DNA from: an uncultured Clostridia bacterium
GTDB taxonomy: Bacteria > Bacillota > Clostridia > TANB77 > CAG-508
Assembly: GCA_944386685.1 (NCBI GenBank)
Contig: CALXCA010000001.1
Location: 10,931-74,930, forward strand
Direction: 5' to 3'
Length of the DNA stretch: 64,000 nucleotides
The notes under the pieces were generated by a model. That model saw nothing but the letters and a program-made list of their open reading frames with translations, searched no databases and was not told where the DNA came from. Position 1 is the first letter of the stretch. Every line of letters begins with the position of its first letter. The translations under genes were made by a program, and so were the position numbers. Below are positions 4,615 to 52,733 of the stretch, one piece after another.

Positions 4615-4777
4615 ACTTTTTCTTATGTTTGGTTTAATCCAACATCTCCTCCATCTTGTTATATTCTACATTAAAACCTTAAATTTCGCAAGTATTTATG
4701 TGTTTTTTTCTAAACTTGTTATTATTTGATAATTGTTTTAAATAAAATAGAATAAAGAAACAATGATATTATAATAT

Positions 4778-4940
4778 TTTAAAGTTTCGACGCTTGATTG
4801 AAATGAAAATTAGAATTCATTTGGCTTTTGCATGAGGAATGTTCACGGTACTCGAGTTTACGAGAGGGTCGGAGTGAAAGAGGCGCATGAAAAAGCCTTA
4901 TGAATTCTTTTTGAATGGAATGAACAGGAGAACTTTTAAA
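4778..4940. mobile_element. MITE-like long-hairpin element, copy 1 (48-nt GC-rich core at 4836-4883)
   Basis: Flanked by direct TATTATAATAT (4767-4777 and 4941-4951). Termini TTTAAAGTT / AACTTTTAAA are inverted. An uninterrupted related site exists at 52638-52715. Second copy at 28056-28213. Confidence 0.7.
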
Positions 4941-5036
4941 TATTATAATATCATCGTTTTTAACAAAACACTTTAAGAGACCATTATTTAGTAACAACTT
5001 GTTATTTTCTACAATTTCTGTTATACTATAATCATT

Positions 5037-6891: not shown

Positions 6892-8034
6892 TCAATTATT
6901 AATTAAAGTTTTTTCAAAAATTCCATACATTATTTGTGTGCCTAATAAAATTTCATCTATTCCAACATGGAAGTTTTCACTATGTTGTGAAAAGTTTTCT
7001 CCATCTTGACATCCAACAAAGAAAAATGCTCCTTTTCTTTCTTGTAAAATATAAGAAAAATCTTCTGAACACATTGTAGAATAATCTTTAATAATGTTTT
7101 CTTCCCCAACAATTTCTTTAGAAACATTTTTGACTAAATTTACATATTCTTCACTATTAACAAGTGCAGGATATTTATCATCTTTAAAAAACACTACTGC
7201 TTCTCCATTCATAGAATTTGCAATATTTGTAGAGACTTCTTTTATTCTATTTTTTATATAATCTCTTAAATTATTATTAAATGTTCTACAAATTCCTTTC
7301 ATTTCAACTTTGTCAGGAATTTTATTATTTGTATTTCCTCCATTTATTGCAGTAATTCCAAGGACTACATTTTCATTTGAGCTTATATTTCTGCCAACTA
7401 TTGATTGTAGAGCTATAACAATAGAACTTGCTATGTAAATTGGGTCTATACATTTTTCTGGAATTGCACCATGCCCCTCTTTTCCATATACAGTTATATT
7501 AAATGGATCTGTTGATGCCATTACTGGACCAGCTTTTATTCCAATAGTTCCTTTTTTTAATTCACTCCAAACATGTAATGCAAAAACACAATCTACATTT
7601 GGATTTTCTAAAACACCTTCTTCAATCATTTTTTTTGCTCCACCACTTGTTTCTTCTGCTGGTTGGAATAAAATTTTTACTGTACCATTTATATTTTCTT
7701 TTTCTTTAATTATAAGTTCGGCTAATGCAAGCATTATTGTCATATGTGCATCATGTCCACATGCATGTTGCATTTTACCTTTTTCGTCCATTTCTATTGC
7801 ATCCATTTCACATCTAAATAATACACATGGCTTTTCTTTTTTTCCCTTTAAAATAGCCATTACTCCTGTTTTTGCTATATTTGTTTTTATTTCATAGCCT
7901 AAGTTTTTTAATCTTTCAATAATATATCTTGAAGTCTCTATTTCTTCAAAACCTTTTTCTGGATGATGCCAGAAAAAGGTTTTATCTTCTTCCATTTGTT
8001 TTTTTAATTCAATTATCTTTTTATCTATCTTCAT
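6892..8034 (-). CDS. M20-family amidohydrolase (N-acyl-amino acid amidohydrolase-like)
   Basis: 380 aa. HACGHDAH, FQPAEE and GHGA motifs typical of M20D peptidases. Confidence 0.85.
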   Translation of the reverse strand: MKIDKKIIELKKQMEEDKTFFWHHPEKGFEEIETSRYIIERLKNLGYEIKTNIAKTGVMAILKGKKEKPCVLFRCEMDAIEMDEKGKMQHACGHDAHMTIMLALAELIIKEKENINGTVKILFQPAEETSGGAKKMIEEGVLENPNVDCVFALHVWSELKKGTIGIKAGPVMASTDPFNITVYGKEGHGAIPEKCIDPIYIASSIVIALQSIVGRNISSNENVVLGITAINGGNTNNKIPDKVEMKGICRTFNNNLRDYIKNRIKEVSTNIANSMNGEAVVFFKDDKYPALVNSEEYVNLVKNVSKEIVGEENIIKDYSTMCSEDFSYILQERKGAFFFVGCQDGENFSQHSENFHVGIDEILLGTQIMYGIFEKTLINN

Positions 8035-17660: not shown

Positions 17661-17971
17661 GTGTCGGTCCTTTTTTGTGCTGGGGTCGGTCCTAAATTAA
17701 ACCAATATATAAAGTATTTTTTATACCTTGTGTGTCGCAACCTACAAAAGAATTTCAATAAGTAGGTTGCTCCAAATCGCATTCGCTACGCTCATTTGAT
17801 CGCTTACGCGGTATTACAAAACACTTTATATATTGATTTAATTTAGGACCGACCCCAGCACAAAAAGGGACCGACCCCAGCACAAAAAGGGACCGACCCC
17901 AGCACAAAAAGGGACCGACCCCAGTAGCACAACACAAAAAAGGACCAGCCCCAATAAAAAGGGACCGACCC
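17661..17971. repeat. Composite palindromic element, copy A (iterons - arm - core - arm - iterons)
   Basis: Arms 17684-17720 / 17817-17854. Core 17721-17816. GGACC box starts at 17846, 17868, 17890, 17912, 17942 (degenerate) and 17962. Inverted boxes at 17661-70 and 17682-92. Confidence 0.85.
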
Positions 17972-27400: not shown

Positions 27401-27954
27401 TCTGTAAGAGATATATCAACAATTCCACCTCTTACACTAAATTGTCCTCTTCCTTCTATTAAATCACATCTTGAGTACCCCAAATCAACTAATATTTTTT
27501 TTAATTCTTCTAGATTTAAAATATCTCCAACTTTAAGTTTTAAAACATTTTTATATAATGCTTTTTTACTAATCATTTTTTGAAGAGCCGTTTCAATTGT
27601 TGTTATTATTATACCAGTTTTCATCTCTTGAATTTTATTTAATATTTCAATTCTTTCATAAGGTAAATCTTTGCTTTCTGCAACATAATCATATGTTACA
27701 ACTTCCTTTTTTGGTAAATAATAAACTTTGTCTGTAAAATATTTAACATCTTCTAAAACTTTTTTTGCTTGAATTTCATTATAAGTTAAAATACAAATTG
27801 GTCTTTTTGTAAATTCACTTGTTGCAGAAATCATTTGTACCATTCCAACGTCTGTTAAGCCCGATAAAGCTATCGGGCTTGTATTTTTTTCTATTGAATT
27901 AATATATTCTTTAAATTTAGGATTTTTTCCTAGTTCTCCTAATATAGTATTCAT
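24490..27954 (-). CDS. mfd: Transcription-repair coupling factor
   Basis: 1154 aa. UvrB-homology N-terminus, CarD-like domain (GDYVVHKNYGIGIF), DEAD/DEAH helicase motifs (GDVGYGKTEVA, DEEHRFG, QLYQIRGRVGR), TRCF C-terminus. Confidence 0.95.
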   Translation of the reverse strand: MNTILGELGKNPKFKEYINSIEKNTSPIALSGLTDVGMVQMISATSEFTKRPICILTYNEIQAKKVLEDVKYFTDKVYYLPKKEVVTYDYVAESKDLPYERIEILNKIQEMKTGIIITTIETALQKMISKKALYKNVLKLKVGDILNLEELKKILVDLGYSRCDLIEGRGQFSVRGGIVDISLTEKEGIRIEFWGDEIDSIRYFNIISQRSTENIDKITIYPAHEYILEKSIDSVISKIRKTVFNEKVQNQIEQDIEIIKIGNYINKIDKYFDAFYDEQETILDYLSNKFLVVLDEITKIKQRAINVNKDSQNIIQLLMDKEKIVPDAIKNICNFEQIQEKLESKHIIYIEKLDNDIKLQAEKYNWVYKEKNFVKTEIEIFFKEILKAQENKTKVYILAETKEKAKKICSLLDEQEILYKFEEKLNQQIIAKSEESFATVSIGKLSSGFECFDTNQIVITSQELIEGEKRKKYKSSAFKEGEKVVYADLKIGDYVVHKNYGIGIFIGVNTITADGTTKDYIKIKYYGDDILYVPTNQLDSVRKYVGGDENGLKINKLGTKEWLNTKAKVKKNLRQVARELIELYARREKAKGYAFAPDTPWQTQFEDSFPYQETDDQLRCIEEVKKDMEMDKPMDRLLCGDVGYGKTEVAIRAAFKAVMSGKQVAYLAPTTVLAEQQYKEFRDRMLNFGVKVEVLNRFKTRKQQTEIIKRLKLGEVDIVIGTHRILSKDVEFKDLGLLIIDEEHRFGVRDKEKIKQYKETIDVLTMTATPIPRTLHMSIVGVRDMSVIYEPPYNRKPVQTYVLEYDQEVIREAITKELERNGQVFYLFNNVEKIMQKANEISNLVPEAKVVYAHGQMTGHEIEDIMGEFVDGKTNVLVCTTILESGIDIPNANTIIVENADRMGLAQLYQIRGRVGRSDRQGYAYITYKKDKLLSEVADKRLKAIKEFTEFGSGFKIAMRDLEIRGAGSLLGEIQSGHLEQVGYDTYCNLLDEVVKEMKGEEVKPEIDVQIDLDATCYIPDEYISDSSQKIEIYQDIALCKNEEDIQNVVDEMIDRYGNMPKEIENLLEIARIKILCKKLNIGKAQGRKNFVVLMFEAGELNLDVNELAKTYKNKIRFSQGVKPQITLVLENSTGMKMLKEVKNFLEYMISIQK

Positions 27955-28016: not shown

Positions 28017-28028
28017 AACAGAAATCTA

Positions 28029-28242
28029 TTTTATAAATATTTATATATTAATATTTTATAAATTTTTCGGCTCATTACAATATTCAAGAATTTGTAATAT
28101 GATTTATTGAGCCTCTTTCACTCAGACCCTCTCGTAAACTCGAGTACCGTGAACATCCCTCAATAAATCATATAACAAATTCTAAAATATTTTCAATCGC
28201 ATTCAAAATTTAAATAATATTAATATATAAATATTTATAAAA
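28029..28242. mobile_element. MITE-like long-hairpin element, copy 2 (core 28112-28159), nested inside a perfect 27-bp AT palindrome
   Basis: The core differs from copy 1 at 2 of 48 positions. The outer perfect inverted repeat is TTTTATAAATATTTATATATTAATATT (28029-28055) / its complement (28216-28242). Confidence 0.65.
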
Positions 28243-28280
28243 TAATTATCAGTTATAAATTAAAAATTATTTATTAATAT

Positions 28281-52518: not shown

Positions 52519-52656
52519 AAACATTTACCTCCTAATTAATTTTATTAATAAACACTACTTTTATTATACCATATATTACCTTATTTTTCAACATTTTTAT
52601 CAAATTTCTTATCAATAGTTACTAGATTATGGTCTTGAATAAAATAGAAAATAAAG

Positions 52657-52684
52657 AAACGATGATATTATAATATCATCGTTT
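52657..52684. repeat. Perfect AT palindrome AAACGATGATAT-TATA-ATATCATCGTTT inside an approximately 78-bp dispersed repeat (52638-52715)
   Basis: Uninterrupted counterpart of the site split by the element at 4778-4940. Confidence 0.7.
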
Positions 52685-52733
52685 TTAGCAAAACAATTCA
52701 AATGACCATTATCTACTATCATACAAAAACATA

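What the first reader, a model, noticed from the sequence alone, without database searches (positions are those of the whole stretch)
28029..28242. Second copy of the hairpin element: the 48-nt apical core is conserved while the adjacent helix is entirely replaced, and it again sits at the centre of a perfect palindrome
The core CCTCTTTCACTCAGACCCTCTCGTAAACTCGAGTACCGTGAACATCCC (28112-28159) differs from the reverse complement of 4836-4883 at only 2 of 48 positions. The 17-19 bp helix that closes it is unrelated in sequence between the copies. Copy 2 has GTAATATGATTTATTGAG / CTCAATAAATCATATAAC. Copy 1 has CATTTGGCTTTTGCATGAG / the complement of CATAAGGCTTTTTCATGCG. Each helix is self-complementary with one mismatch. 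The outer arms are recognisably homologous (..CATTACAATATTCAAGAATT.. versus ..CATTCCATTCAAAAAGAATT..). The whole unit is nested inside a perfect 27-bp inverted repeat (28029-28055 / 28216-28242), so it has again landed in the apex of an AT-rich palindrome. A conserved loop with a swapped helix is the signature expected of a functional hairpin, either RNA or single-stranded DNA. The core shares the heptamer GGGTCGG with the iteron/arm box of the other element family (GAGAGGGTCGGAG versus GGGGTCGGTCC). That could mean a common binding protein, or it could be coincidence.
Basis: partly seen in the sequence, partly recalled or inferred. Interest (0 to 1): 0.6.

Follow-up and report, generated by a model that had tools for sequence, protein, structure and literature searches.

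The report
Hairpin mini-transposon with conserved folded core
The flagged hairpin is one copy of a small non-coding jumping element (a MITE) of uncultured gut Clostridia; its long palindromic arms belong to the element itself and surround a strongly conserved, base-pair-covarying centre whose job is still unknown.

Summary
The 48-nt core recurs with 2 mismatches, the closing helix is swapped, and the 27-bp inverted repeat is perfect.

- **What it is.** The hairpin did not land in a foreign palindrome. The whole 238-bp palindrome (28017-28254) is one element.
  - The genome holds 24 copies, plus 23 copies of a sister family.
  - Related copies end in GTTAC-type terminal inverted repeats with 8-bp target duplications. 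Copy 1 has a perfect AACAAGTT.
  - The family is patchy and confined to one genus of gut Clostridia MAGs.
  - It is therefore a MITE.
- **What is unusual.** Conservation has two tiers.
  - The centre (core, helix base, two asymmetric modules) is about 94% identical between copies.
  - The outer arms are about 72% identical between copies, yet almost perfectly self-complementary within each copy.
- **Structure.** Three stems covary: 94% paired against 76% in shuffles, with 0 of 500 shuffles as good.
- **Strand clues.** Wobble pairs, tandem G·A pairs and a promoter-like TTGAAT-16-TAGAAT motif all point to the G-rich strand.
- **Heptamer.** The GGGTCGG link to the other repeat family is variant-specific and probably coincidence.
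- **Databases.** There is no match in Rfam, plasmids, phages or the literature.

The parts
28017..28254 (.). Whole palindromic element, copy 2 (subfamily B of the hairpin MITE). Its tips are degenerate (..CCAACAGAAATC / GATAATTATCAGTT..).
   Evidence: The inverted repeat I1 is 28017-28066 with 28205-28254. The other six B copies share about 200 bp of it at 87-93% identity. Sequence was checked.
28017..28066 (+). Left outer arm. It holds the perfect 27-bp repeat 28029-28055 and the AT box ATATATTAATATT.
28205..28254 (+). Right outer arm. It holds the perfect 27-bp repeat 28216-28242.
28063..28085 (+). Left asymmetric module (TTTTTCGGCTCATTACAATATTC). It is conserved in sequence and is not complementary to the right module.
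   Evidence: It appears as an internal loop in the folds.
28079..28111 (+). 5' arm of the inner helix (P1). It ends in the conserved base AAGAATT and in TGAG next to the core.
   Evidence: Repeat I2. Covariation is shown.
28112..28159 (+). The 48-nt asymmetric core.
- Stem P2: TTCAC 28117-28121 with GTGAA 28149-28153.
- Apical stem P3: CTC 28129-28131 with GAG 28142-28144.
- Conserved unpaired stretches: CCTCT, TCAGACC, TACC and CATCC.
28159..28191 (+). 3' arm of the inner helix (P1).
   Evidence: Repeat I2. Covariation is shown.
28186..28206 (+). Right asymmetric module (AATATTTTCAATCGCATTCAA). On the minus strand it carries the -35-like hexamer.
28179..28206 (-). Promoter-like motif on the G-rich strand, pointing into the hairpin. 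It reads TTGAAT (28206-28201), a 16-nt spacer, then TAGAAT (28184-28179). It is inferred from sequence and has not been shown to fire.
   Evidence: At this fixed place, 66 of 126 copies score at least 9 of 12 on the G-rich strand, against 7 of 126 on the other strand.
4721..4995 (-). Copy 1 (subfamily A, 275 bp). Its tips are GTTACTAAATAATGG / ATTATCAAATAAT. Its core lies at 4836-4883. A perfect 8-bp target duplication AACAAGTT lies at 4996-5003 and 4713-4720.

Best explanation
**Identity (well supported).** The flagged unit is one old copy of a non-autonomous palindromic DNA transposon, a MITE. Elements of this family are 230-275 bp long.

**Anatomy, from outside to inside**
1. Short terminal inverted repeats of the GTTAC(A/T)nTTCAG type, flanked by an 8-bp target duplication.
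2. A spacer arm that is free in sequence but kept symmetric within each copy.
3. An AT-rich box.
4. Two conserved, non-complementary modules.
5. A covarying helix of about 30 bp with an invariant AGAATT base.
6. A 42-50-nt three-stem core.

**How it moves (shown or inferred).**
- Movement is presumably by a DDE-type transposase supplied in trans. No such gene was found here.
It is not a target palindrome.

**The centre (shown).** The centre is under purifying selection as a folded single strand.

**How the centre works (inferred, about even odds against single-stranded DNA).**
- The working strand is the G-rich one, which is the minus strand in copy 2.
- It is probably made as a hairpin RNA of about 100 nt.
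- Transcription would start from the element's own TTGAC/TTGAAT-16 to 18 nt-TAGAAT promoter in the right module.
- It would end at the U-rich stretch after the helix.
For: **It is a dispersed repeat family**
- The genome has 24 copies, plus 23 of a sister family.
- More than 107 loci in other gut Clostridia MAGs carry the core.

**Terminal repeats and target duplications**
- Conserved tips are seen.
- Among 16 copies with clear tips, 9 have at least 6 of 8 identical 8-bp flanks. None of the 16 controls exceeds 4 of 8.
- Copy 1 has a perfect AACAAGTT duplication.

**Patchy distribution typical of a mobile element**
- It is found only in its own genus, in about 16 of about 110 genomes.
- It is absent from 290 genomes of other genera of the order.
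- Most genomes hold 1-4 copies, with bursts of 22 and 13.

**Structure**
- 94% of cells are paired, against 76% in shuffles.
- 338 cells changed on both sides, against 97 in shuffles; 0 of 500 shuffles reach the observed values.
- Slid-partner controls give 33-46% pairing.
- P2 compensations are TTCGC/GCGAA and CTCAC/GTGAG and TCGGC/GCCGA.
- P3 has at least eight different stems.

**Two-tier conservation**
- The inner 50 nt are 94% identical between copies but only 70% self-complementary.
- The outer arms are 72% identical between copies but near-perfectly self-complementary within the element.

**Clues for the G-rich strand**
- Inner-helix mismatches read as G·U on that strand 55 times, against 17 on the other strand.
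- The sister family's P2 has a G·U on that strand, and both families have tandem G·A pairs there.
- The G-rich strand folds more stably.
- The promoter-like motif occurs on that strand only.
Against: - **No autonomous partner.** No element with these tips was found in this genome. It has no IS66-type DDE gene either.
- **Copy 2 is degenerate.** Its tips are degenerate and it has no clean target duplication.
- **B-copy spacers are unexplained.** The seven B copies share the inner 200 bp, yet their spacer arms are unrelated and partly symmetric. A simple burst-and-decay model does not explain this.
- **Promoter motif is weak evidence.**
  - It is good in only about half of the copies.
  - Promoter-like hexamers are no commoner in the region than in shuffles (6 found, 5.0 expected).
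  - The -10 T is replaced in some subfamilies (pair 8:118).
- **Orientation argues against co-transcription of the G-rich strand.** The C-rich strand is the sense strand of co-directional neighbour genes in 53 of 64 flank clusters. The G-rich strand is therefore usually not co-transcribed.
Confidence: 0.7

Rival explanations
1. The centre of about 100-160 bp is a mobile hairpin in its own right. It inserts into the apex of pre-existing palindromes, either other MITEs or AT-rich inverted repeats, and so builds nested elements.
For: - In subfamily A the inner 163 bp sits in the exact centre of an outer palindrome of about 118 bp, and the 8-bp ATTATAAT is present on both sides.
- Core-less outer palindromes exist at C3:86450, window 52619-52722 and C5:56640.
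- Conservation is nested, level by level.
- In L078 the flanks beyond the tips are inverted repeats, not direct repeats.
- Two copies in G004 share the centre but have unrelated, genome-unique arms of 50-75 bp.
Against: - Deletion between the two ATTATAAT or AAATTT direct repeats at the base of a hairpin gives the same 'empty' forms. In-situ deletions also keep the old target duplication.
- The G004 arms still begin with TTAC tips.
- Target duplications flank the whole palindrome.
- No copy of the centre was seen outside long arms, apart from truncated ones.
Confidence: 0.15
2. The conserved centre works as folded single-stranded DNA, not as RNA. One possibility is a priming or single-strand-initiation signal like the sso of rolling-circle plasmids. 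Another is a hairpin that the transposition machinery or host replication needs. Arm symmetry would then be kept by fold-back templating or by mismatch repair in the hairpin.
For: - Pair changes are almost all Watson-Crick to Watson-Crick, with hardly any G·U on the C-rich strand.
- The outer-arm mismatch spectrum is strand-symmetric, with 58 G·T against 57 A·C. That fits a DNA-level process.
- Orientation tracks the lagging-strand template as well as it tracks transcription: 21 against 7 in contexts without a clear transcription direction.
- A promoter-like motif inside a hairpin stem is how RNA polymerase primes at ssoA. This rests on my own knowledge.
Against: - Nothing similar is found on 72,556 plasmids, in 50,697 phages or in IMG/VR.
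- The element has terminal repeats and target duplications. That points to a double-strand cut-and-paste or copy-out mechanism.
- The inner-helix mismatch bias is strand-specific. Both RNA and single-stranded DNA would explain that.
Confidence: 0.2
3. The centre has no function of its own. It looks conserved only because all copies descend from a recently spread master copy. On this view the helix 'covariation' is a by-product of palindrome homogenisation.
For: - The family is genus-restricted, patchy and bursty.
- Copies are related to each other, so shuffle tests overstate significance (caveat printed).
- Arms are clearly homogenised within copies.
Against: - Within the same copies the arms have diverged to 72% identity while the centre stays at 94%.
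- The centre is asymmetric, so arm homogenisation cannot maintain it.
- The short stems P2 and P3 sit inside asymmetric loops and still show compensatory changes, including in a distant relative from another family.
- The sister family keeps the same architecture with a diverged sequence.
Confidence: 0.1
4. It is a stationary structured RNA gene or cis-regulatory RNA of the host, for example one that controls mfd, and not a mobile element.
For: - Copy 2 lies 62 nt upstream of the mfd start codon.
- A truncated relative lies upstream of mfd in G010.
- The structure covaries.
Against: - In G003 and G004 the same gene pair has a 75-nt spacer with its own promoter and no element.
- The 24 copies lie next to unrelated genes in all four gene arrangements.
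- Target duplications are present.
- About 85% of the genomes of the genus lack it.
Confidence: 0.03

Closest known systems
Long-hairpin bacterial MITEs: Correia elements (Neisseria), ERIC/IRU (enterobacteria), RUP (Streptococcus pneumoniae)
   Same: They are non-coding elements of 100-300 bp. They have terminal inverted repeats and short target duplications, with tens of dispersed intergenic copies. They can fold as one long hairpin when transcribed. Some carry internal promoters or processing sites, as Correia elements do (own knowledge).
   Different: - The centre is far better conserved than the arms and shows base-pair covariation in three stems.
- The arms vary freely between copies but stay symmetric within a copy.
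- No parent IS is known.
- The host range is a single genus of uncultured gut Clostridia.
- There is no sequence similarity to those families.
REPINs (REP doublets moved by RAYT tyrosine transposases)
   Same: They are palindromic doublets that fold as hairpins. Changes in one arm are matched in the other. They show an orientation bias and are thought to act as single-stranded DNA.
   Different: - REPINs are shorter, have no target duplication, and go with a single-copy Y1 (RAYT) gene flanked by the repeats.
- Here there are 8-bp duplications.
- The two Y1 genes of this genome are flanked by other sequences. One of them is flanked by the GGGGTCGGTCC iterons of the other repeat family.
ssoA-type single-strand origins of rolling-circle plasmids
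   Same: Both are imperfect hairpins of about 150-200 nt that depend on orientation. Both have promoter-like boxes in the stem and a conserved unpaired apex (own knowledge).
   Different: - This element is chromosomal, multi-copy, and flanked by terminal repeats and duplications.
- It has no plasmid or phage relatives.
- The RS_B and CS-6 consensus motifs were not checked.
Sister family 'S' in the same genome (232 bp, 23 copies)
   Same: It has the same tips (GTTACAGTTCAG), the same AT box, the same asymmetric modules, the same helix base and the same three-stem plan. It also has 8-bp duplications, TATAATAT and GAAAATAA.
   Different: Its core sequence has diverged (GGAAAATGTTCGCGTCGAGCATTAGCGAGGACTAAGTGAAAGGATGCC). 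It scores 44-62 bits against the model, compared with 99-115 bits for the family studied here.

Membership tests
MITE (non-autonomous element with terminal inverted repeats) | Short (under about 600 bp) and non-coding | tested here: met
   Elements are 230-275 bp. Apical stem lengths differ by numbers of bases that are not multiples of three. No conserved reading frame is present.
MITE (non-autonomous element with terminal inverted repeats) | Terminal inverted repeats shared across copies | tested here: met
   GTTAC(A/T)nTTCAG or GTTACTnGATAA tips occur in many subfamilies. In copy 2 the tips are degenerate.
MITE (non-autonomous element with terminal inverted repeats) | Direct target-site duplication of fixed length | tested here: met
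   The duplication is 8 bp. Nine of 16 tip-bearing copies have at least 6 of 8 identical flanks, against 0 of 16 in the control. Copy 1 has a perfect AACAAGTT. Copy 2 is inconclusive: TATAAA is present on both sides but out of register.
MITE (non-autonomous element with terminal inverted repeats) | Many dispersed copies at unrelated loci, with patchy presence among related genomes | tested here: met
MITE (non-autonomous element with terminal inverted repeats) | An autonomous IS with the same ends that encodes the transposase | tested here: inconclusive
   None was found in this 49-contig assembly or in 107 loci of 8 kb. Metagenome assemblies often lose IS copies.
REPIN / REP-RAYT system | A single-copy Y1 (RAYT) gene flanked by the repeat, and no target duplication | tested here: not met
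   The Y1 genes at C22:13907 and C15:38937 are flanked by other sequences. This family has 8-bp duplications.
Any Rfam 15 RNA family, including ribozymes | A score at or above the family's gathering threshold | tested here: not met
   The window gives no hit at gathering thresholds. Nothing falls on the core at E up to 10. For other copies there are only sub-threshold matches to plant miRNA hairpin models.
ssoA-type single-strand origin | RS_B and CS-6 consensus motifs, and residence on rolling-circle replicons | not tested
   The motifs were not compared, because I could not recall the consensus reliably. There is no similar sequence on plasmids or phages.

The most novel reading that the evidence does not exclude
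The MITE is a vehicle for a small structured RNA gene.
- Each copy would carry its own sigma-A-type promoter (TTGAC/TTGAAT, 16-18 nt, TAGAAT) in the right asymmetric module.
- That promoter would drive a hairpin RNA of about 100 nt, ending at the U-rich stretch after the helix.
- The conserved three-stem apex, with its tandem G·A pairs and its GGGUCUGAG and AGAGG loops, would be the functional part. It could be a protein-binding or catalytic RNA.
- Transposition would then spread dozens of expressed copies of an undescribed RNA class through a genome.
Probability: 0.3. Interest if true: 0.65.

Novelty: new member of a known kind. Interest (0 to 1): 0.4.

Why it matters
- **Annotation.** These MAG genomes are annotated without any repeat library. 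Knowing the family explains about 47 GC-richer intergenic islands in this 1.9-Mb genome. It also stops them being read as separate regulatory sites or RNA genes.
- **The open point.** A selfish element keeps an asymmetric, covarying centre more strictly than its own arms, and the arms are held symmetric without sequence conservation. Either the centre is needed for propagation as a folded strand, or it is an RNA payload.
- **Testability.** Both options can be tested. Either result would say something about how palindromic repeats persist in bacteria that have hairpin-cleaving nucleases.

Tried and rejected
**Searches that found nothing**
- Rfam at gathering thresholds and at permissive thresholds on five copies found nothing real.
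- Plasmid, phage and IMG/VR searches for the centre found nothing.
- A literature search for the core words found only unrelated PCR primers.

**Empty-site tests for copy 2**
- In other species the mfd upstream region is too diverged to compare.
- The same-species contig carries the element.
- A joined-flank pattern found nothing in JGI metagenomes.

**The genome-unique arms of the G004 copies**
- I first suspected captured foreign DNA or guide-like spacers.
- The arms occur nowhere else in 185,579 species genomes.
- They still start with TTAC tips, so I read them as fast-evolving element arms.

**Other ideas dropped**
- A coding reading of the core is excluded by indels that are not multiples of three.
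- A hammerhead, twister or hairpin-ribozyme resemblance was judged by eye only and is not supported by the Rfam models.
- An autonomous IS was sought by tip pairs up to 4 kb apart, by genome self-BLAST and by the IS66 DDE profile. None was found.

I therefore made no RNA or DNA read check and did not use read laying.

Full report
**1.

- The 48-nt core at 28112-28159 recurs at 4836-4883 on the other strand with 2 mismatches. No match occurs in 100 shuffles.
- The helix that closes the core is 28079-28111 paired with 28159-28191, 33 nt at 91%. Its core-proximal 18 bp differ between the two copies, apart from the last four pairs TGAG/CTCA.
- The 27-bp repeat 28029-28055 / 28216-28242 is exact. 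The imperfect palindrome runs from 28017 to 28254.
- Either strand folds into one long hairpin far more stable than shuffles.

**2. It is a repeat family**

- The window's genome has 1.93 Mb in 49 contigs and about 25% G+C. It holds 24 copies of the core.
- A covariance model built here also finds 23 copies of a diverged sister family.
- An exact-pattern scan of one genome per prokaryote species returned more than 107 loci. All are in uncultured gut Clostridia MAGs from chicken, goat, rumen, mouse and human.
- Within the order, the pattern is confined to the window's own genus. About 16 of about 110 genomes have it, against none of 290 genomes from other genera. Most carriers have 1-4 copies, with bursts of 22 and 13.
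- One distant relative turned up in another family of the class.
- Nothing similar is on plasmids, in cultured phages or in IMG/VR.
- No Rfam family matches. No paper in the library contains the core words.

**3. Anatomy**

Aligning 130 copies shows the same zones everywhere. From outside to inside they are:

1. Tips of the type GTTAC(A/T)nTTCAG or GTTACTnGATAA.
2. A spacer arm of 15 to more than 100 nt. It differs between copies but is nearly perfectly complementary to its partner arm.
3. An AT-rich box such as GATATATTAAT or GATATTATAAT.
4. Two conserved modules that are not complementary to each other.
5. A helix of about 30 bp with an almost invariant AGAATT/AATTCT base.
6. The core.

The core reads, on the C-rich strand, CCTCT-TTCAC-TCAGACC-[variable stem-loop]-TACC-GTGAA-CATYC.

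**4. It is a MITE, and the palindrome is its own**

- Among 16 copies with clear tips, nine have 8-bp flanks identical at 6 to 8 positions. Three are perfect. The control flanks never exceed 4 of 8.
- Copy 1 in this window spans 4721-4995 and has the perfect duplication AACAAGTT.
- Sister-family copies show TATAATAT and GAAAATAA.
- Copy 2 is an old copy. Its tips are recognisable only faintly, and TATAAA occurs on both sides out of register.
- Its 27-bp repeat lies in zones 2-3 of the element.
- The reading that a smaller hairpin landed in the apex of a palindrome is therefore not needed.
- It is not excluded as the evolutionary origin of the long forms, for these reasons:
  - In subfamily A the inner 163 bp sits between two copies of ATTATAAT in the centre of a 118-bp outer palindrome.
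  - That outer palindrome also exists without a centre, for example at window 52619-52722.
- Deletion between the direct repeats at the base of a hairpin gives the same picture. Several short forms of the sister family are plainly such deletions.
- No autonomous partner was found.

**5. The fold is selected**

- On 65 non-redundant copies, the three-stem structure has 94% of cells paired, against 76% after shuffling.
- It has 338 cells changed on both sides, against 97 after shuffling. None of 500 shuffles reaches the observed values.
- Sliding the partners by 1-3 columns drops pairing to 33-46%.
- The middle stem was fixed by my search pattern. Elsewhere it shows compensatory variants: TTCGC/GCGAA and CTCAC/GTGAG in this genome, and TCGGC/GCCGA in the distant relative.
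- The apical stem occurs in these forms, among others:
  - CTC/GAG
  - CTT/AAG
  - CCT/AGG
  - CTCAC/GTGAG
  - CTCGC/GCGAG
  - CTCGCG/CGCGAG
  - AAAAGC/GCTTTT
  - CAATCTGT/ACAGATTG
- The copies are related to each other, so the shuffle numbers overstate significance. The slid controls and the independent stem types do not depend on that.

**6. Two tiers of conservation**

I compared ten homologous copies from different species.

| Zone | Identity between copies | Self-complementarity within a copy |
|---|---|---|
| Inner 50 nt | 94% | 70% |
| Outer arms | 72% | near-perfect inside the element |

- Two copies in one relative (G004) share the centre but have unrelated arms of 50-75 bp. These arms are GC-rich and occur nowhere else in that genome or in 185,579 species genomes.
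- Within subfamily A of this genome, variant bases are mirrored on both arms.
- Outer-arm mismatches are strand-symmetric: 58 G·T against 57 A·C. That fits a DNA-level homogenising process, or selection on a perfect duplex.
- The asymmetric centre cannot be maintained that way, so it must be constrained by sequence.

**7. Which strand, which molecule**

*Clues that favour the G-rich strand (the minus strand in copy 2)*

- Inner-helix mismatches would be G·U on the G-rich strand 55 times, against 17 on the other strand.
- The sister family's middle stem has a G·U on the G-rich strand. Both families have tandem G·A pairs next to the apical loop on that strand.
- The G-rich strand folds more stably in all three subfamilies tested.
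- The right module carries a promoter-like motif on the G-rich strand only.
  - In copy 2 it is TTGAAT-16-TAGAAT at 28206-28179.
  - In other subfamilies it is TTGACG or TCGACG-18-TAGAAT.
  - It scores at least 9 of 12 in 66 of 126 copies, against 7 of 126 on the other strand.
- The helix is followed by more U on the G-rich strand: 5.1 of 9 nt against 4.0.

*Points against this*

- The C-rich strand is the sense strand of co-directional neighbour genes in 53 of 64 independent flank clusters, p about 1e-7.
- That bias is confounded with replication direction.
- The bias is absent in this genome, where the split is 9 to 9.
- Promoter-like hexamers are no commoner in the region than in shuffles.

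*My reading*

- These steps are inferred, not shown.
- I favour an RNA made from the element's own promoter. Single-stranded DNA is close behind.

**8. The heptamer**

- GGGTCGG is present in 21 of 134 cores, and 15 of those are in this genome. Copy 2 has GGGTCTG, which is the consensus.
- The C variant occurs in several subfamilies of this genome and of its sister MAG. That is odd and unexplained.
- It is not a conserved feature, so a shared binding protein is unlikely.
- In passing: the iterons of that other family flank a Y1 (RAYT-like) gene at C15:38937 in inverted orientation. That is the layout of a REP/RAYT system.

**9. Verdict**

- This is a real, well-defined member of an undescribed MITE family. 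It agrees with the earlier follow-up on copy 1 (e1-2864220), whose claims on terminal repeats and target duplication I re-tested here.
- It is a familiar kind of element with an unusually constrained, covarying centre.
- The function of that centre is the only part worth further work.

Noticed in passing
G000 contigs C9:29147-29379, C11:43780-44012, C14:11417-11650 (loci L175-L177), and about 20 more: A sister MITE family of 232 bp shares the tips, AT box and modules but has a diverged core (GGAAAATGTTCGCGTCGAGCATTAGCGAGGACTAAGTGAAAGGATGCC). It has 23 copies. Forms of 62-64 bp look like internal deletions of it.
   Followed up: partly
G000 C15:38937-39269 and flanks (outside the window); related to window 17661-17971: A 337-aa ORF with a Y1_Tnp domain is flanked upstream by three tandem 22-bp iterons (..TTGTTACTGGGGTCGGTCCC..). 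The same iteron lies downstream in inverted orientation. This is the layout of a RAYT gene between REP sequences.
   Followed up: partly
window 52619-52722: This is a core-less copy of the outer palindrome of subfamily A (GTTACTAGATTATGGTC...GATGATATTATAATATCATC...GACCATTATCTACTATC). It is either a deletion derivative or the uninterrupted host element.
   Followed up: partly
Core position 4 of CTC[A/C]GACCC, all copies of G000 and of MAG CALXHG01: The same A/C polymorphism is shared by several subfamilies within one genome: A type has 12 C and 1 A, and B type has 2 C and 5 A. This suggests gene conversion between copies or recurrent mutation.
   Followed up: no
L078 (CAWVJG010000061.1) around 322-570: Here the 15 nt beyond both GTTACAGTTCAG tips are inverted repeats of each other (AAGGGATTTAAGAGA / TCTCTTAAATCCCTT), not a direct duplication. 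This is one case where the palindrome extends past the tips.
   Followed up: no
L101 (CASFHP010000044.1) 7675-7774: This copy has a tandem duplication of 24 nt inside the core (ACGTGAGTACCGTGAACAT.. appears twice).
   Followed up: no
window 27856-27881: A terminator-like GC hairpin followed by a T run lies on the plus strand inside the 5' part of the mfd reading frame, antisense to mfd. The first 70 nt of the listed mfd ORF may not be coding, or the hairpin may end an antisense transcript.
   Followed up: no
G010 contig C76:250-440 (locus L159): A truncated copy of the hairpin element, from another subfamily, also lies upstream of mfd in a different species. The nearest relatives, G003 and G004, have a 75-nt spacer without any element.
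   Followed up: partly
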